A DNA stretch of 64,000 nt from Enterobacterales bacterium (GCA_965250035.1 OZ252282.1:2998536-3062535); one strand, 5' to 3'. Shown: positions 1 through 11,183, numbered from the stretch's first letter. Notes: a model not told the origin generated them from the letters alone. A program made the numbers and translations.

Positions 1-24
1 AGTCTTAAACGTAACGAGTAACTT

Positions 25-249
25 ATGGTTTGGTTGTTGATGAGAGTTTTTCTATATGGATATTTCAGCTCAGTGATTATGCTCTATATTGTAATAGACT
101 TTTCACATCAATATTCTGAATTAAATATTATTGGGACTTCGAAGATTACTTATCAGTATGCGATATACGGTGCTGTAGCAGCTGTAGTTTCCACATTGAG
201 CTATCAGGGATTAAAAAGAGTGATTCTAACTTTGTGGGAATCAGATTAG
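25..249 (+). CDS. Hypothetical small membrane protein (cassette ORF)
   Basis: Hydrophobic 74 aa ORF. It overlaps 234..581 in another frame, so the pair may be one frameshifted gene. Confidence 0.35.
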   Translation: MVWLLMRVFLYGYFSSVIMLYIVIDFSHQYSELNIIGTSKITYQYAIYGAVAAVVSTLSYQGLKRVILTLWESD

Positions 250-581
250 TGGAGTATGTACTCCTAGTTATTGTTATTGGTGCAACATTAAGTCCAATAG
301 CATTTGCCCTATATGATGACAAAGACAAAAAATTACTATTTATTGGTTCTATTTATGGGGTCAATATAATTATCTGGGTGTTGATCTACTTTATGTATGT
401 TCCAGTTTGGCTTTTCTTAGTTTATATCGTTCCTACATTGAAGGAATTTGGATATGCTGAGAATATTCTATACGTAATTGGATTGGCTGAACTTTATCAA
501 GAATGGTGGTTCATTTTATTTTTTATCTCATTATTCATCGTTTCATTTCGGATCAATAAAAGATATGAGAAATTATTTTAG
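234..581 (+). CDS. Hypothetical polytopic membrane protein (cassette ORF)
   Basis: 115 aa with several hydrophobic helices and a GTG start. An attC-like site follows it. Confidence 0.45.
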   Translation: MGIRLVEYVLLVIVIGATLSPIAFALYDDKDKKLLFIGSIYGVNIIIWVLIYFMYVPVWLFLVYIVPTLKEFGYAENILYVIGLAELYQEWWFILFFISLFIVSFRINKRYEKLF

Positions 582-591
582 TATTGTTAAT

Positions 592-652
592 CGTAACCAG
601 AAGTCTTTGTCGACCTCGTTTCATTCGGCGACAAGCCTTGAGCGTGATAGGT
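592..652 (+). repeat. attC-like recombination site (short family)
   Basis: CGTAACCAGAAGTCTTTGTCGACCTCG...GCGTGATAGGT. It is closely similar to the element at 1501-1560 and sits directly after the stop codon at 581. Confidence 0.6.
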
Positions 653-661
653 AATAATGTA

Positions 662-916
662 ATGCGCAGACGCGACAAAAAGGGATACACACTATTTGAT
701 AGATTTGCACTATTTTTTATTACATTTGTATTCACATATCTGATCATATTTTTTGTGTTTCTTTACCTATTAAAAAAGACAATTATATTTGGAGGAATCA
801 CGGCAGGAAGTTTTAATCTTTATGTCTCTCTGGGTATGGGTGTATTGGCTTTCTTCACTGGCAGTAAATTGGTTACAGATATCTTGGGTTTTTTCCTTGG
901 AGGATTAAGAAGGTGA
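662..916 (+). CDS. Hypothetical small membrane protein (cassette ORF)
   Basis: The track ORF 584..916 starts inside the attC-like site. The internal ATG at 662 (MRRRDKKGY...) lies just after that site. The protein has two hydrophobic helices. Confidence 0.5.
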   Translation: MRRRDKKGYTLFDRFALFFITFVFTYLIIFFVFLYLLKKTIIFGGITAGSFNLYVSLGMGVLAFFTGSKLVTDILGFFLGGLRR

Positions 917-921
917 TTACC

Positions 922-977
922 TATAACCAGGAACATGACTTGACCGCTGAAGCGGCATGTTATTTCAGACGTTATAT
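922..977 (+). repeat. attC-like recombination site
   Basis: TATAACCAGGAACATG...CATGTTATTTCAGACGTTATAT. Internal inverted repeats are AACATG/CATGTT and CCGC/GCGG. It lies between the stop at 916 and the ATG at 981. Confidence 0.6.
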
Positions 978-980
978 TTC

Positions 981-1496
981 ATGAGAATAATACTCATTCT
1001 AATCTCAATAATTATTTTTACTTCTTGCTCTGATGAAGTAGTAAACCCTTCCATATCAGGCTATTGGTATGGTGAACCTATTCGTAGCACAGAAAGAAAT
1101 GATCTAGAGGGTAGAAAGAACAGAAAATTTTACTCTTTACGTATGGATAATGGGCATTTTATAACTAAGCAATCTTATGTAATTGATGGGAGTTTAGAGT
1201 CAAGGGTTGTTTATGGTTTTTGGCAACGAGTTGATAATTTCTATATTGTGCAACAAGCAGCTATAGTCGATAAAGGTGGTGAATATTGGTACGGTGACTG
1301 TCATATCGACATGGTAGCCAGCCAAATAATGAATTTAACTGAAGATAAATTTGTCTATAAATCTAAAGACTCTGGAATTTATTATTCTAGTACTAGAATC
1401 AGTGAGAAAGATGGATTAGCAGAAATAGATATTAATGATGATTTGTATAAAACAATGTACCTTAAGTTAGTAGAGTTCAGTGAGAGCTGTGCTTAA
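981..1496 (+). CDS. Hypothetical lipoprotein (cassette ORF)
   Basis: Starting at the ATG at 981 gives MRIILILISIIIFTSC, which is lipobox-like. The track start at 957 lies inside the attC-like site. Confidence 0.6.
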   Translation: MRIILILISIIIFTSCSDEVVNPSISGYWYGEPIRSTERNDLEGRKNRKFYSLRMDNGHFITKQSYVIDGSLESRVVYGFWQRVDNFYIVQQAAIVDKGGEYWYGDCHIDMVASQIMNLTEDKFVYKSKDSGIYYSSTRISEKDGLAEIDINDDLYKTMYLKLVEFSESCA

Positions 1497-1500
1497 GAAA

Positions 1501-9328: not shown

Positions 9329-9424
9329 TCAGACTGCAATTGGCATTGTGTTTGACAGTTTAGGTGTGCTCCATCCTGAATGACGAGTTACCAAACAATC
9401 AATATTTTTCTACTGGGCAACTAA

Positions 9425-9823
9425 GTGCTGACAGGAATCAATCATATAACGATAGCGGTGAGCGATTTAGAGCGCTCGTTATCATTCTATTCGGAAATAC
9501 TCGGCATGACTGCGCATGTGAAATGGCGCAGAGGCGCGTATCTCACCTTGGGTGATGACTGGTTTTGTCTCACGCTGGATGAAGTTGCTCCCGCCCAAGA
9601 TTACAGCCATATTTCGTTTAACATTTCAGAAGAAGATTTCGATGCATTTTCAGCCGCACTTCGTGAAAACAATATTCGGGAATGGAAAGAAAATACCAGT
9701 GAAGGGAAATCACTGTATCTATTGGATCCCGATGGGCATAAACTTGAGGTGCACTCGGGTAGCCTGTCGTCTCGGCTAGATGAACTTCGCAATCGTCCAT
9801 ATGATGGTTTGGAATGGCTATGA
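9425..9823 (+). CDS. fosA: FosA-family fosfomycin-resistance glutathione transferase homolog
   Basis: 132 aa, starting MLTGINHITIAVSDLERSLSFY. Residues corresponding to FosA metal ligands are H7, H62 and E108. Also present are T9, Y39, W46, C48, the K+-loop region KENTSEGKSLYLLDPDGHKLEVH, and R117. GTG start. Confidence 0.85.
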   Translation: MLTGINHITIAVSDLERSLSFYSEILGMTAHVKWRRGAYLTLGDDWFCLTLDEVAPAQDYSHISFNISEEDFDAFSAALRENNIREWKENTSEGKSLYLLDPDGHKLEVHSGSLSSRLDELRNRPYDGLEWL

Positions 9824-9871
9824 ACAGTTGATCATGGTGGCAGTATGAATGAGATTAGATCGGAGAAATAA

Positions 9872-10237
9872 GTGTATATTCTAGCAGCGATATTACTGTT
9901 CGTTATCGGAATCGCCCATTCCTATCTAGGAGAACGGTATATTCTCATTCGATTGTTTCGCAGAAACGATTTACCGAAAATAATGGGCAGTGAAGATTTT
10001 ACTAAAAACACCCTGCGGTTTGCCTGGCATATCACAACATTGGCCTGGTTTGGTTTTGCAGCCATTCTATTCCATATGGCTAGTGATCAACTCAATGGAA
10101 CCGTCATCGGTAATGTTATTGGGATAACATTTTTATTCCATTTCGCGATTGCAGTCATCGCTTCAAGAGGAAAACACTTATCCTGGCCGGTATTCTTAAC
10201 AATCGGATTGGTCGTGTTGTATGCCTCGAACAGTTAA
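9872..10237 (+). CDS. Hypothetical 4-TM membrane protein
   Basis: 121 aa with a GTG start. An attC-like site follows it. Confidence 0.5.
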   Translation: MYILAAILLFVIGIAHSYLGERYILIRLFRRNDLPKIMGSEDFTKNTLRFAWHITTLAWFGFAAILFHMASDQLNGTVIGNVIGITFLFHFAIAVIASRGKHLSWPVFLTIGLVVLYASNS

Positions 10238-10341
10238 CTCAGTCGTTCGCGTTACATTTAAGTGAAAATATCCTGTAAAAGTGTCAATATGACATCAACA
10301 CATCTCGCCTAGCATAAAAATAATTCAGGAGGATGTTATGT
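10234..10341 (+). repeat. attC-like recombination site
   Basis: TTAACTCAG...GGAGGATGTTATGT. It begins in the stop codon at 10235-10237 and ends with GTTATGT at 10335-10341. Confidence 0.45.
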
Positions 10342-10389
10342 CATCCATAGACGATTATGTCATCCCGGTAGCGGTGGATAAGAAGAACA

Positions 10390-10764
10390 ATGTTTGACCA
10401 TGTTGTATTTGGTGTAAAGGATTATGAGCGCAGTAAGGCGTTCTATCTCCGCGCGTTGAGTCCAATTGGTATTCAGATTTTGGCTGAGGACGAGCTTGGT
10501 ATCGAAATGAGTGCCGATGGCAAGTCTTCACTTTGTATCCGTCGGCAGGTAGAGGACAATCCGGCCCCTTTGCATATCGCGTTCATTGCAGAGAGTCGAG
10601 AGCAGGTTGATCAGTTCCATCGACTCGCACTGGAGACGGGAGCTCGTGATAACGGCGCACCTGGGATACGACCAAATTATACAGGCAGTTATTATGCCGC
10701 TTTTGTCCTAGACCCTGACGGACACAATATAGAGCTGGTGGTTCACGAAGACGAATTGAGTTGA
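10390..10764 (+). CDS. VOC/glyoxalase family protein (cassette ORF)
   Basis: 124 aa. MFDHVVFGVKDYERSKAFY...DPDGHNIELV. Confidence 0.8.
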   Translation: MFDHVVFGVKDYERSKAFYLRALSPIGIQILAEDELGIEMSADGKSSLCIRRQVEDNPAPLHIAFIAESREQVDQFHRLALETGARDNGAPGIRPNYTGSYYAAFVLDPDGHNIELVVHEDELS

Positions 10765-10792
10765 ATTCAATGAGTCGTGAGTTATTGTGATG

Positions 10793-10905
10793 ATTAACCC
10801 TGATAGGTGCGAGCTAAGACTTTATCATGTATGCTCATAAATGCATTCTGCATGAGATCACTCATCTATAATTACATCATTAGATCAGGTAACCGGCGGT
10901 TATGT
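10793..10905 (+). repeat. attC-like recombination site (last recognisable one)
   Basis: GATTAACCCTGATAGG...TAGATCAGGTAACCGGCGGTTATGT. The inverted repeat is AACCCTGAT / ATCAGGTAACC. The GTTATGT core at 10899-10905 contains the ATG at 10902. Confidence 0.5.
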
Positions 10906-11132
10906 TTAATAAGAAAATTCTCAATCTGATACTCATCATCATTCTCATTGTTTGCCTGTGGATCGGTTGGGGCGATTTTGATTTCACTCAATCCGATATG
11001 ACACAACAAGAAATACGTGATTCAATCAGAGAGCACATTCGTCGGGCTATTCAAATTGCTATCCAGTTTGTCATACCCATCGCCATTCTTGGTTATTTCA
11101 TCAAAGAGCTGTTTGGCAAGCGTGATTCATAA
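10902..11132 (+). CDS. Hypothetical small membrane protein (last cassette-like ORF)
   Basis: 76 aa with two TM helices. Its ATG is embedded in a GTTATGT core, and I found no attC-like site downstream. Confidence 0.4.
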   Translation: MFNKKILNLILIIILIVCLWIGWGDFDFTQSDMTQQEIRDSIREHIRRAIQIAIQFVIPIAILGYFIKELFGKRDS

Positions 11133-11183
11133 AAATTCTGATGCGTCATTTACAAAACCTACTATTTCGTCTGGGGAGATTCC

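What the first reader, a model, noticed from the sequence alone, without database searches (positions are those of the whole stretch)
1..11150. The first ~11 kb is an integron cassette array whose integrase lies outside the window
Seen directly: between 580 and 10,905 most stop codons are followed by a 55-130 bp imperfect palindrome.

- Each palindrome opens with an inverse-core-like TAAC (TATAACAAG at 1501 and 4621, CATAACAAG at 2642, CATAACCAG at 5881).
- Each closes with a core-like GTTAGGT, GTTATGT or GTTATAT (1554-1560, 1974-1980, 3395-3401, 4713-4719, 5479-5485, 5933-5939, 10335-10341, 10899-10905).
- The closing core lies 0-40 nt before the next start codon.
- All ~24 ORFs are short (66-216 aa), lack their own obvious promoters, and sit on the same strand. 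The DNA looks AT-rich relative to the sequence after 11.2 kb.

This is the architecture of attC-bounded cassettes (R''-L''...L'-R', with RYYYAAC and GTTRRRY boxes). The orientation puts attI/intI to the left of position 1. Most cassette products have no recognisable family, so this is the most likely place in the window for undescribed functions. Chromosomal integrons are known reservoirs of resistance, toxin-antitoxin and anti-phage cassettes.
Basis: partly seen in the sequence, partly recalled or inferred. Interest (0 to 1): 0.8.

Follow-up and report, generated by a model that had tools for sequence, protein, structure and literature searches.

The report
Eroding chromosomal integron cassette array
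The first 7.6 kb of the window is the far end of a chromosomal integron gene-cassette array, a known kind of bacterial gene-capture system.

Summary
Confirmed for 1-7.6 kb, not for 7.6-11.15 kb.

- **attC sites.** Nine sites (921-5939, + strand, each just after a stop codon) are recognised by models trained only on other sequences: class-1 plasmid attCs, or attCs from metagenome arrays. A tenth (5129-5188) has no such support. Two relics lie at 6679-6745 and 7533-7593.
- **Structure.** Bottom strands fold into the R-box helix plus an inner helix. The inner helix carries a bulged T inside a conserved GTC, and the pairs covary.
- **Mobility.** Homologues of three cassettes sit in other arrays. 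One (73% aa) is bounded there by intact attCs of the same family.
- **Erosion.** The window's sites fold worse and score lower than their metagenome kin. Four have lost the GTT crossover triplet. One attC is missing and one has lost its left arm.
- **The tail.** 7.6-11.15 kb has short same-strand ORFs and intermediate GC3, including a FosC2/FosG-like gene. It has no attC by any model and no excess folding.
- **Integrase.** None in the window. Upstream sequence could not be retrieved.

A new member of a known kind.

The parts
11..17 (+). R'-like remnant GTAACGA. It is the end of a preceding short-type attC (..CTTAAACGTAACGAG) cut off by the window start, with GTA in place of GTT.
   Evidence: Read directly from the sequence. 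It resembles the ..TTTAAACGTTATGT ends of c3 and c9. This is a weak call, made by eye only.
18..590 (+). Cassette 0. ORFs 25-249 (74 aa) and 234-581 (115 aa), both membrane-like, with no Pfam family.
   Evidence: A homologue (58% nt over 616 nt; 39% aa for ORF 234-581) lies in metagenome arrays L102 and L112, between two long-type attCs.
591..654 (+). attC c1, short type, with a degenerate R' (GTGATAG in place of GTTRRRY).
   Evidence: R3 19.0 bits, E 0.048 over the whole window. R1 6.6 bits. Metagenome-only HMM is weak, E 2.6. Fold z -0.6.
662..916 (+). Cassette ORF, 84 aa, membrane-like, no family.
921..977 (+). attC c2, short type (CTATAAC ... GTTATAT).
   Evidence: R3 19.9 bits, E 0.03. 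R1 9.3 bits. Metagenome-only HMM E 3.9e-7. Fold z -2.1.
981..1496 (+). Cassette ORF, 171 aa, with a lipoprotein-like signal sequence and no family.
1500..1560 (+). attC c3, short type (ATATAAC ... GTTAGGT).
   Evidence: R3 16.7 bits. R1 9.9 bits. Metagenome-only HMM E 0.0018. Fold z -2.2.
1566..1949 (+). Cassette ORF, 127 aa, no family. Its 3' end overlaps attC c4.
1921..1980 (+). attC c4, the best-preserved site. Layout: ACCTAAC / TAGCA / ATT[C]AAGCGG[A]CGG ... CCGCTTACT / TGAAAC / GTTATGT. Both canonical extrahelical bases are present (C and A on the top strand, which are G and T on the bottom strand).
   Evidence: R1 (class-1 attCs) 30.7 bits, E 1.2e-5. R3 40.8 bits, E 2.8e-7. Metagenome HMM E 1.9e-8. 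The constrained fold equals the MFE, -10.1 kcal/mol.
1993..2634 (+). Cassette ORF, 213 aa, with a signal peptide and no family.
   Evidence: Only 5 relatives were found among 5.8 billion proteins. The closest (54%) lies in another cassette array, L098, which has R1 attC hits at 7 intergenic sites.
2641..2741 (+). attC c5, long type (about 100 nt). R'' is ACATAAC, and R' is GTAATGA, so the crossover triplet is GTA rather than GTT.
   Evidence: Metagenome-only long HMM E 4.6e-21. R3 14.9 bits. R1 7.8 bits. Alignments A5.
2758..3309 (+). Cassette ORF, 183 aa, with a signal peptide and no family.
3304..3401 (+). attC c6, long type (TCTTAAC ... GTTATGT).
   Evidence: R1 15.6 bits. R3 24.3 bits, E 0.0027. 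Metagenome HMM E 5e-18.
3442..4068 (+). Cassette ORF, 208 aa, LysE/RhtB-type amino-acid exporter.
   Evidence: Pfam LysE. NCBIfam hits are below the curated cut-offs.
4096..4103 (+). Isolated R''-like box ATAACAAG, 28 nt after the LysE stop codon. It may be the relic of a lost attC.
   Evidence: No HMM or CM hit, and fold z +0.2 for 4069-4231.
4232..4612 (+). Cassette ORF, 126 aa, DUF6869.
4620..4719 (+). attC c7, long type. It is 86.6% identical to the intact attC L106 1369-1465, but carries extra C-to-T changes in the left (L'') arm.
   Evidence: R3 28.7 bits, E 2e-4. R1 12.8 bits. HMM E 9e-16. blastn. Alignment. Fold z -3.4.
4734..5129 (+). Cassette ORF, 131 aa, RraB-like with a signal peptide.
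   Evidence: Pfam RraB. NCBIfam RraB 68.8 bits, below the cut-off of 82.
5129..5188 (+). c8, a weak and degenerate short-type site (ATATAAC ... GTTTAGA).
   Evidence: Recognised only by models that include it. Not found by R1, R3 or the metagenome HMM. Fold z about -1.
5218..5418 (+). Cassette ORF, 66 aa, membrane-like.
5426..5485 (+). attC c9, short type (CCAAAAC ... GTTATGT).
   Evidence: Metagenome HMM E 1e-6. R3 11.4 bits.
5510..5896 (+). Cassette ORF, 128 aa, with a signal peptide and no family.
5880..5939 (+). attC c10, short type (ACATAAC ... GTTATGT).
   Evidence: R1 10.1 bits. R3 17.6 bits. Metagenome HMM E 1.8e-5.
5961..6765 (+). Two fused cassettes: ORF 5961-6239 (92 aa, zinc-ribbon membrane protein) and ORF 6253-6765 (170 aa). 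Only 13 nt and no attC lie between them.
   Evidence: In metagenome contig L106 the 73%-identical homologue of ORF 6253-6765 (79% nt) is preceded by an intact attC (813-911) and followed by another (1367-1466).
6679..6745 (+). Relic c11: the central part and right arm of a c5-like long attC, with R' GTAATCA. The left arm (R''-L'') is missing, and ORF 6253-6765 reads through the relic to a new stop codon.
   Evidence: nhmmer E 1.6e-7 with the window HMM and 2.1e-7 with the metagenome-only HMM, profile positions 32-96. Comparison with L106.
6775..7584 (+). ORF 6775-7293 (172 aa, AAA_33/KTI12-type kinase) and ORF 7384-7584 (66 aa, signal peptide).
   Evidence: The spacer 7294-7383 has TAAC and GTTAAGC ends but no fold (z +0.1) and no model hit.
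7533..7593 (+). Relic short-type attC overlapping the end of ORF 7384-7584. It is the last model-supported attC trace.
   Evidence: R2 21.6 bits, E 0.024 for the whole window and 0.002 for the region. nhmmer E 0.01 and 0.14 with the metagenome-only HMM. It no longer folds (z +0.7).
7610..11132 (+). attC-less tail of eight short + strand ORFs with GC3 0.42-0.49:
- 7610-7987
- 8033-8443, LIC_13387 family
- 8551-8910, glyoxalase/Ble-like
- 8957-9328, DUF2007
- 9425-9823, Fos_GSH
- 9872-10237
- 10390-10764, glyoxalase
- 10902-11132

Cassette status is unproven.
   Evidence: No attC by R1, R2, R3 or the HMMs, apart from a marginal long-type alignment at 8438-8531 (4.2 bits). Fold z about 0. Relatives of ORF 9872-10237 are in non-array contexts.
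9425..9823 (+). FosA-type fosfomycin-resistance glutathione transferase homologue, 132 aa, GTG start.
   Evidence: NCBIfam Fos_GSH equivalog 199 bits, above the cut-off of 180. 63.6% identical to plasmid FosC2 and 62.9% to FosG. fosC2 is the first cassette of a class 1 integron in L113.

Best explanation
**What it is.** Window 1 to about 7.6 kb is the integrase-distal end of a chromosomal integron cassette array. It holds at least 11-13 promoter-poor, mostly single-gene cassettes on the + strand. Each ends, or once ended, in an attC site. The attC sites belong to two lineage-specific families: a short type of 57-64 nt and a long type of about 100 nt.

**How it works (established integron mechanism; not tested here).**
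- The bottom strand of an attC folds into a hairpin with R and L helices, an unpaired central spacer and extrahelical bases.
- An integron integrase (IntI) recognises that shape and cuts between A and C of the AAC triplet (G|TT on the top strand).
- It excises the cassette as a circle and re-inserts it at attI next to the Pc promoter.
- Distal cassettes such as these are a mostly silent reserve.

**What is particular here (shown).** This array is eroding.
- Only c4 still looks like a fully competent site; c7, c6 and c2 are partly preserved.
- Four sites have lost the GTT crossover triplet.
- One attC has been lost and one has lost its left arm.
- Two sites are unfoldable relics.

**Inferred.** Cassettes in this stretch are becoming fixed chromosomal genes. 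The 7.6-11.15 kb tail may be the oldest, fully fossilised part, or it may be an unrelated islet. Whether the genome still has an integrase is open.
For: **(1) Models trained without the window find the sites.**
- R1 was built from 10 class-1 plasmid attCs. It hits 1921-1980 at 30.7 bits, E 1.2e-5. Five more candidates are among its 12 best hits in 128 kb.
- R1 scores untrained true attCs at 37-51 bits. It finds nothing at E<=1 in about 390 kb of unrelated loci.
- R3 was built from 27 attCs of metagenome arrays. Its 8 best hits in the whole window are all candidate sites on the + strand, at 14.9-40.8 bits.
- HMMs built only from metagenome attCs find c2, c3, c4, c9 and c10 (E 2e-8 to 2e-3), and c5, c6, c7 and c11 (E 5e-21 to 2e-7). 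They find nothing in 1.18 Mb of control loci.

**(2) The reverse test works.** R2 was built from 7 window sites. Its 6 best hits in 91 kb of plasmid DNA are all true class-1 attCs on the right strand. The aadA2 attC scores 33.2 bits.

**(3) Structure.**
- RNAalifold of the bottom strands gives the R helix plus an 8-bp helix with a single bulged T inside a conserved GTC.
- 79.8% of cells are paired against 69% in shuffles (0 of 500 shuffles reach the observed value). Six pairs show compensatory change. Slid registers give 24-50%.

**(4) Cassette mobility.**
- The ORF 6253-6765 homologue (73% aa) lies between intact attCs in L106.
- The cassette 0 homologue lies in L102 and L112.
- The ORF 1993-2634 homologue (54%) lies in array L098.

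**(5) A related chromosome carries the same thing.** L111 has an array with both attC families next to fpg-rpmG-rpmB-radC-coaBC. These genes are 59-89% identical to window genes at 41.3-47.9 kb.

**(6) Erosion.**
- Fold z -1.6 against -3.0 for metagenome kin (p 0.001). R1 bits 11.5 against 24.5 (p 2e-4).
- Alignments show the point changes and the missing segments.

**(7) Composition.** GC3 is 0.24-0.35 in the array, 0.42-0.49 in the tail and 0.55-0.62 in the core.

**(8) Not terminators.** No terminator-like site coincides with the palindromes.
Against: - The published IntegronFinder attC model was not available. My surrogate models are small and their E-values are rough.
- With R1 only one site passes a strict threshold. 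c8 has no independent support, and c1 has only R3 at E 0.048.
- The erosion comparison has an ascertainment bias. Metagenome sites were listed only if they scored at least 12 bits, and the contigs were found through a conserved core motif. R1 is also G+C-rich, which penalises A+T-rich sites.
- No integrase, attI or Pc was seen, so the integron context is inferred from cassettes alone.
- For the tail there is no attC evidence at all, and one tail gene has relatives only in non-array contexts.
Confidence: 0.85

Rival explanations
1. The whole 1-11,150 stretch is one active array of a complete integron, and its intI, attI and Pc lie just upstream of position 1.
For: - Orientation of all attCs is R'' to R' on the + strand.
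- The window begins inside the array: an R'-like remnant at 11-17 and a cassette from 18.
- The tail has cassette-like organisation and a FosC2/FosG-like gene, and the closest plasmid relative of that gene is a class-1 cassette.
- c4 is a well-preserved site.
Against: - No attC, palindrome or model hit after 7593.
- The cores at 10335 and 10899 are isolated heptamers.
- Relatives of tail ORF 9872-10237 are not cassette-borne.
- Many attCs are degraded, with crossover triplets lost in 4 sites. This is not expected under ongoing integrase activity.
- The integrase was not observed, and upstream sequence was not obtainable.
Confidence: 0.3
2. An integrase-less remnant: a CALIN or fossil array. 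The integrase was lost, or was separated by a rearrangement. The attCs are now decaying neutrally and the cassettes are static.
For: - Lower fold z-scores and lower CM scores than same-family attCs elsewhere.
- GTA or GTG in place of GTT in 4 sites. One attC is missing and one has lost its left arm, relative to L106.
- Relics at 6679 and 7533.
- The array sits 36 kb from, and inverted relative to, the fpg-radC block that directly flanks the related array in L111. This is compatible with a rearrangement at the array.
- Precedents: CALIN are common (PMC4889954), and Treponema phagedenis keeps attCs and cassettes without intI (PMC3607928).
Against: - Only the distal end is seen, so erosion could be local.
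- c4 and c7 remain good sites.
- The comparison with metagenome sites is biased towards good sites.
- Nothing is known about the sequence upstream.
Confidence: 0.4
3. The palindromes are not attCs. They are another kind of intergenic repeat: REP/BIME-like elements, MITEs or transcription terminators.
For: They are intergenic imperfect palindromes that follow stop codons. Several score weakly with the class-1 model.
Against: - No G+C-rich stem with a T-run at any of them.
- They occur only in this A+T-rich stretch and on one strand.
- They carry AAC/GTT boxes and a conserved bulged T.
- A model built from them retrieves bona fide class-1 attCs.
- Intact family members score 25-42 bits with the class-1 attC model.
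Confidence: 0.02

Closest known systems
Sedentary chromosomal integrons of marine Gammaproteobacteria (Vibrio cholerae superintegron with VCR attCs; Shewanella and Xanthomonas integrons)
   Same: - Chromosomal location and a one-strand array of short, mostly unknown-function, A+T-rich cassettes.
- Lineage-specific attC families that are shared with related environmental arrays.
- A related array next to conserved housekeeping genes in L111.
   Different: - The attCs are heterogeneous: two families, with only about 48% mean column identity across eight of them. VCRs are near-uniform (my own knowledge).
- Many sites are degraded.
- Integrase, attI and Pc were not seen.
- The size of the whole array is unknown.
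[quoted passage not shown] 2016, PMC4889954) and the intI-less remnant of Treponema phagedenis (PMC3607928)
   Same: - At least 2 co-oriented attCs less than 4 kb apart, with no integrase in the 64 kb seen.
- Cassettes unlike those of clinical integrons.
- Signs of decay.
   Different: The CALIN label needs the absence of intI within the cluster. The array runs off the window, so this cannot be judged.
Class 1 mobile integron attC sites (aadA2, aadB, blaVIM-2 and others)
   Same: - Same architecture: R''-spacer-L''...L'-spacer-R', and GAC with an extrahelical A (top strand) at the same distance from R''.
- c4 aligns base for base with the aadB/aadA2 type.
- Models cross-recognise in both directions.
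   Different: - No transposon, plasmid or 3'-conserved-segment context.
- A+T-rich.
- Cassette contents are unrelated, except for the Fos-family gene, which here lacks an attC.

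Membership tests
Integron gene cassettes bounded by attC sites | Inverse-core and core boxes R'' (RYYYAAC) and R' (GTTRRRY), with conserved AAC and GTT triplets | tested here: met
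   Eight sites (c2, c3, c4, c6, c7, c8, c9, c10) have ..AAC and GTT.. boxes. Not met at c1 (GTG), c5 (GTA), c11 (GTA) or the remnant at 11-17 (GTA).
Integron gene cassettes bounded by attC sites | The single strand folds into an imperfect hairpin with R and L helices | tested here: met
   - The consensus fold has an R helix plus an 8-bp inner helix. 79.8% of cells are paired against 69% in shuffles (0 of 500). Six pairs have compensatory changes.
- Fold z is negative for all 10 sites, mean about -1.7. This is weaker than in related arrays, mean -3.0.
Integron gene cassettes bounded by attC sites | Extrahelical bases on the '' arm of the bottom strand | tested here: met
   - A single bulged T inside the GTC that is conserved across the 7 short sites (G and T invariant).
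- The top-strand A of GAC is invariant across the 8 aligned sites.
- Both G and T equivalents are present in c4.
Integron gene cassettes bounded by attC sites | Recognition by an attC covariance model | tested here: inconclusive
   The IntegronFinder model was not available. Surrogates were used instead.
- R1 (class-1 attCs): one site at E 1.2e-5 and five more at E 0.1-6.
- R3 (metagenome attCs): five sites at E<0.05 and three more at E<0.5.
- E-values are rough because the calibration was shortened.
Integron gene cassettes bounded by attC sites | Co-oriented sites less than 4 kb apart, each downstream of an ORF (PMC4889954) | tested here: met
   All sites are on the + strand, 0.3-1.3 kb apart, and begin 0-8 nt after or overlap a stop codon.
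Integron gene cassettes bounded by attC sites | The same gene occurs in a different array context (cassette mobility) | tested here: met
   L106, L102/L112 and L098.
Complete integron | intI: a tyrosine recombinase with the IntI-specific domain, adjacent to the array | tested here: not met
   No IntI1 homologue in the 64 kb window (tblastn, best E 1.3). The place where it should be, upstream of position 1, is not testable with these tools.
Complete integron | attI site and Pc promoter | not testable with these tools
   They would lie outside the window.
CALIN | At least 2 attC sites and no integron-integrase in the cluster (PMC4889954) | tested here: inconclusive
   Met for the part seen, but the array runs off the window start.
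Sedentary chromosomal integron | More than 19 attC sites, or presence in all genomes of the species (PMC4889954) | not testable with these tools
   Ten sites and 2-3 relics were seen. A related array in a homologous chromosomal neighbourhood (L111) hints at lineage-level persistence.
Intrinsic terminators / REP-type repeats | G+C-rich stem followed by a T-run; scattered, on both strands | tested here: not met
   Three terminator-like sites lie on the + strand and none is at the palindromes. The family HMMs hit only this stretch and only one strand.
FosA-type fosfomycin resistance glutathione transferase (ORF 9425-9823) | Score above the NCBIfam Fos_GSH equivalog cut-off | tested here: met
   199 bits against a cut-off of 180. 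Below the cut-offs of the FosC2 and FosG allele families. 63.6% identical to FosC2. Activity was not tested.

The most novel reading that the evidence does not exclude
This would be a chromosomal integron caught while fossilising.
- attC sites are being destroyed by loss of the R''-L'' arm and by mutation of the GTT crossover triplet.
- Cassette composition climbs towards that of the host along the array: GC3 0.3, then 0.45, then 0.58.
- On this reading the attC-less tail would be former cassettes now fixed as ordinary genes. One of them is a FosC2/FosG-like fosfomycin-resistance gene, related to cassettes that circulate in clinical class 1 integrons.

That would give a dated, stepwise record of how cassettes are domesticated.
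Probability: 0.3. Interest if true: 0.5.

Novelty: new member of a known kind. Interest (0 to 1): 0.35.

Why it matters
Chromosomal integron arrays are a well-described reservoir of accessory genes, so the basic finding is ordinary.

It has three modest points of value.
- It defines two attC families that recur in environmental arrays. They can be used to fish for the rest of this integron lineage.
- Side-by-side comparison with an intact related array shows concretely how attC sites are lost (a missing site, a missing left arm, changed crossover triplets). This bears on how cassettes become fixed genes and how CALIN arise.
- 13 of the 16 ORFs in 1-7.6 kb have no Pfam family. A new Fos-family variant (64% identical to FosC2) sits at the edge of the array.

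Tried and rejected
**Scans that did not discriminate.**
- A gapless arm-complementarity scan and a per-length folding-energy scan for AAC...GTT pairs were both dominated by G+C-rich core sequence, so I dropped them.
- Rfam has no attC family; its only hit was a TPP riboswitch.

**Attempts to reach upstream sequence or the integrase, all negative.**
- Exact look-ups of ORF 25-249, 40-249, 234-581 and 249-581.
- Genome scan with ORF 234-581.
- Metagenome scan with the same protein.
- The three Logan contigs that carry the array all start at window 428. The block holding a contig of more than 1 Mb was not returned; I take it to be the source chromosome.

**Comparisons with relatives.**
- The genome scan with the flanking 591-aa transporter gave 80 loci. 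Only the transporter itself is shared, with no array and no synteny.
- An IntI search in all fetched loci found only Xer-like recombinases in unrelated Alphaproteobacteria and none in the array contigs.

**Annotation.**
- PADLOC on ten cassette proteins gave nothing above noise.

**Tests of the tail as ex-cassettes.**
- Half-site and family HMMs on intergenic DNA gave only a 4.2-bit alignment at 8438-8531.
- Relatives of ORF 9872-10237 lie in ordinary or toxin-antitoxin contexts.

**Hits set aside.**
- The CM hits at 15265-15324, 21113-21177 and 51116-51140 lie inside coding sequences or are truncated local matches. I treat them as false positives.
- Synteny of ORF 5961-6239 with the upstream cassette of L106 rests on only 30% aa identity (E 0.007). 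I do not claim it.

Full report
**What was claimed**

Most were said to be followed by an imperfect palindrome that opens with TAAC and closes with GTTA.

**Checking the observation**

All quoted motifs are at the quoted coordinates. The ORF set is as described. GC is 33-44% up to 11 kb and about 50% afterwards.

The boxes are strongly concentrated in the first 6 kb:
- Six of the 13 CGTTAKRT matches in both strands of the window lie on the + strand between 970 and 5939.
- Six of the nine ATAACMAG matches lie on the + strand between 923 and 5889.

I delimited ten sites running from an ..AAC box to a GTT.. box.

| Site | Coordinates | Note |
|---|---|---|
| c1 | 591-654 | R' degenerate |
| c2 | 921-977 | |
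| c3 | 1500-1560 | |
| c4 | 1921-1980 | |
| c5 | 2641-2741 | R' is GTAATGA |
| c6 | 3304-3401 | |
| c7 | 4620-4719 | |
| c8 | 5129-5188 | |
| c9 | 5426-5485 | |
| c10 | 5880-5939 | |

Their bottom strands fold better than dinucleotide shuffles, with z from -0.6 to -3.4. The intergenic stretches after 7.6 kb do not, with z from -0.3 to +0.9. The observation therefore holds for the first 6-7.6 kb only.

**Are they attC sites? Independent models**

Rfam has no attC family and IntegronFinder was not available, so I built surrogates.

*R1, from class-1 attCs.*
- I located class 1 integrons in PLSDB plasmids with IntI1 and read the annotated arrays.
- I extracted attC sites. Ten of them (aac(6')-29a, blaVIM-2, arr-3, aac(6')-Ib, aadB, aadA2, estX, psp, cmlA1, dfrA27) were aligned and used.
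- I built covariance model R1 with the textbook pairs: R''/R' 7 bp, and L''/L' 9 bp with one bulge.
- R1 scores untrained true attCs at 37-51 bits. It finds nothing at E<=1 in about 390 kb of unrelated loci.
- On the whole window with filters off, it gives 12 hits at E<=10. Six are my sites, with exact ends, on the + strand: c4 30.7 bits (E 1.2e-5), c6 15.6, c7 12.8, c10 10.1, c3 9.9 and c2 9.3. c5 and c1 follow at 7.8 and 6.6 bits when only 1-11.4 kb is searched.
- c4 aligns base for base with the aadB/aadA2 type, including both extrahelical positions.

*R2, from window sites.*
- R2 was built only from seven short window sites, modelled on the bottom strand.
- It retrieves bona fide class-1 attCs as its six best hits in 91 kb of plasmid DNA, on the correct strand. 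The aadA2 attC scores 33.2 bits, blaVIM-2 30.1, psp 21.0 and aadB 19.7.

**Structure**

- RNAalifold on the seven short bottom strands predicts the R-box helix plus an 8-bp inner helix. The inner helix is interrupted by one bulged T inside a conserved GTC (G and T invariant). This corresponds to the extrahelical T of canonical attCs (established knowledge of attC structure).
- 79.8% of cells are paired against 69% in column shuffles (0 of 500 shuffles reach it). Six pairs show compensatory changes. Registers slid by 1-3 columns give 24-50%.
- None of the palindromes looks like an intrinsic terminator.

**Two attC families, and their relatives elsewhere**

- The sites fall into a short type (c1-c4, c8-c10) and a long type of about 100 nt (c5-c7; alignment A5, 64% column identity).
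- A scan of JGI metagenome contigs with the conserved core of the long type returned 12 contigs.
- HMMs trained on the window sites find both families in these contigs, co-oriented between short ORFs.
- The class-1-trained R1 hits them 46 times at 12-42 bits. They are genuine cassette arrays that use the same attC families.
- I then trained models on these foreign sites only:
  - R3 was built from 27 sites. Its eight best hits in the whole window are c4 40.8, c7 28.7, c6 24.3, c2 19.9, c1 19.0, c10 17.6, c3 16.7 and c5 14.9 bits, all on the + strand. c9 scores 11.4.
  - The metagenome-only HMMs find c4, c2, c9, c10 and c3 (E 2e-8 to 2e-3), and c5, c6 and c7 (E 5e-21 to 9e-16). They find nothing in 1.18 Mb of control loci.
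- c8 alone has no independent support.

**Evidence that the genes are mobile cassettes**

- ORF 6253-6765 has a 73% (aa), 79% (nt) homologue in contig L106. There it sits between two intact long-type attCs, at 813-911 and 1367-1466 (R1 21.6 and 31.7 bits).
- The first cassette of the window (10-600) has a 58% (nt) homologue between two attCs in L102 and L112.
- ORF 1993-2634 has only five relatives in 5.8 billion proteins. The closest (54%) lies in a 10-kb contig made of 22 short co-directional ORFs, with R1 hits at seven intergenic positions.

**A related chromosome**

- Contig L111 carries an array with both attC families.
- After about 2.5 kb of attC-less small ORFs come fpg, a 156-aa gene, rpmG, rpmB, radC and coaBC. 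These are 59-89% identical to window genes at 47.9-41.3 kb.
- A relative therefore has the same kind of array in its chromosome. There the array directly flanks a housekeeping block. In the window that block lies 36 kb away and is inverted relative to the array.
- This supports a lineage-level chromosomal integron, and hints at a rearrangement at or near the array end.

**Erosion**

- Compared with 21 same-family sites in the metagenome arrays, the ten window sites fold worse (mean z -1.6 against -3.0, Mann-Whitney p 0.001). They also score lower with R1 (11.5 against 24.5 bits, p 2e-4).
- c7 is 86.6% identical to L106 1369-1465 but has extra C-to-T changes that break pairs in its left arm.
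- Four sites have lost the GTT crossover triplet: GTA at 11-17, c5 and c11, and GTG at c1.
- The attC that must once have preceded ORF 6253-6765 is absent. Only 13 nt separate that ORF from the previous stop codon, whereas L106 has a full attC there.
- The attC after ORF 6253-6765 survives only as its central part and right arm (6679-6745; E about 2e-7). The ORF reads through it to a new stop codon.
- A last short-type relic at 7533-7593 is still recognised (R2 21.6 bits) but no longer folds.
- Caveats: the metagenome sites are pre-selected for quality, and R1 favours G+C-rich sites.

**The tail, 7.6-11.15 kb**

- Eight further short + strand ORFs have intermediate GC3 of 0.42-0.49. The array has 0.24-0.35 and the core 0.55-0.62.
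- They include three glyoxalase-fold proteins, a DUF2007 protein and a LIC_13387-family protein.
- ORF 9425-9823 (GTG start) passes the NCBIfam equivalog cut-off for fosfomycin-resistance glutathione transferase, at 199 bits against 180.
- That ORF is 63.6% identical to FosC2 and 62.9% to FosG of clinical plasmids. fosC2 is the first cassette of a class 1 integron in one of them.
- No model finds an attC here. The spacers do not fold.
- Two relatives of ORF 9872-10237 were examined, and both lie in ordinary chromosomal contexts.
- The tail may be fully fossilised cassettes or an unrelated islet. I do not count it as array.

**Integrase**

- tblastn with IntI1 finds nothing in the window or in the array contigs.
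- Every attempt to get sequence upstream of position 1 failed.
- Three public assemblies of the same sequence all break at window position 428.
- By the definitions of Cury et al. 2016 (PMC4889954), the part seen is a cluster of attC sites. It could belong to a complete integron or be a CALIN.
- The erosion makes an integrase-less or inactive state plausible. A precedent is the Treponema phagedenis remnant (PMC3607928).

**Mechanism**

The following is established for integrons and not tested here.
- IntI binds the folded bottom strand of an attC.
- It cleaves between A and C of the AAC triplet and excises the cassette as a circle.
- It re-inserts the circle at attI, downstream of Pc.

Inferred for this locus:
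- Only c4, and to a lesser degree c7, c6 and c2, retain the features needed.
- The GTA/GTG sites and the relics cannot be crossover points, so neighbouring cassettes are locked together.

**Verdict**

- This is a real integron cassette array for 1-7.6 kb, with confidence about 0.85.
It over-extends by 3.5 kb and is unverifiable on the integrase.
- It is a new member of a known kind.
- Interest is modest. It rests on the visible decay of attC sites, the two environmental attC families and the many unknown cassette proteins.

Noticed in passing
window 9425-9823 (+): A FosA-type fosfomycin-resistance glutathione transferase homologue. It scores 199 bits on the Fos_GSH equivalog (cut-off 180) and is 63.6% identical to FosC2 and 62.9% to FosG. 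It uses a GTG start. The public gene call on the Logan contig truncates it to 105 aa (ATG 9506) and records no Pfam hit for it.
   Followed up: yes
window 43300-46100: A low-GC island (36-44%) holding a fatty-acid desaturase (43471-44385, -), an unknown 316-aa ORF (44382-45332, -) and an ArsR-family regulator (45412-45753, +). It is inserted between radC and rpmB. In the related contig L111, radC and rpmB are about 100 nt apart.
   Followed up: partly
window 41329-47941 versus L111 9096-13021: The conserved block coaBC-radC-rpmB-rpmG-(177 aa)-fpg directly flanks the cassette array in L111. In the window it lies 36 kb from the array end and is inverted relative to the array direction. This suggests an inversion or a different insertion locus.
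   Followed up: partly
window 58637-58733 (-): A TPP riboswitch (66.6 bits, gathering score 54.3) lies directly upstream of a TonB-dependent receptor gene (56519-58591, -). This implies thiamine-regulated outer-membrane uptake.
   Followed up: no
window 11184-28271 (+): After the array and tail, about 17 kb of genes are still almost all on the + strand. They are mostly small accessory enzymes at host-like GC: six GNAT acetyltransferases, GST, SnoaL, cupin, MAPEG, SDR and a methyltransferase. No attC was detected. The 591-aa CitMHS/TrkA_C transporter at 11184 has close homologues in very different phyla, with no conserved neighbours.
   Followed up: partly
window 428: Three independent Logan assemblies (ERR14835554, ERR14835898, ERR14835899) all start their contig at exactly this position, in the middle of ORF 234-581. 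This suggests a repeat or a strain difference just upstream. No repeat of this stretch exists inside the window.
   Followed up: partly
window 7888-7940 (+): A recurrent weak attC-model hit (R1 10.0 bits, R3 14.1 bits) inside the 3' part of ORF 7610-7987. It is either chance or a buried relic.
   Followed up: no
window 48513-48560: A very stable hairpin with a T-run (12-13 bp stem, -13.8 kcal/mol) after the ExbD/TolR-like gene 48095-48508. It is a likely bidirectional intrinsic terminator.
   Followed up: no
L092 (plasmid pWLK-NDM) 2628-5795: A class 1 integron with non-resistance cassettes (NUDIX hydrolase, YjjG-like nucleotidase) and a group II intron inserted after the second cassette.
   Followed up: no
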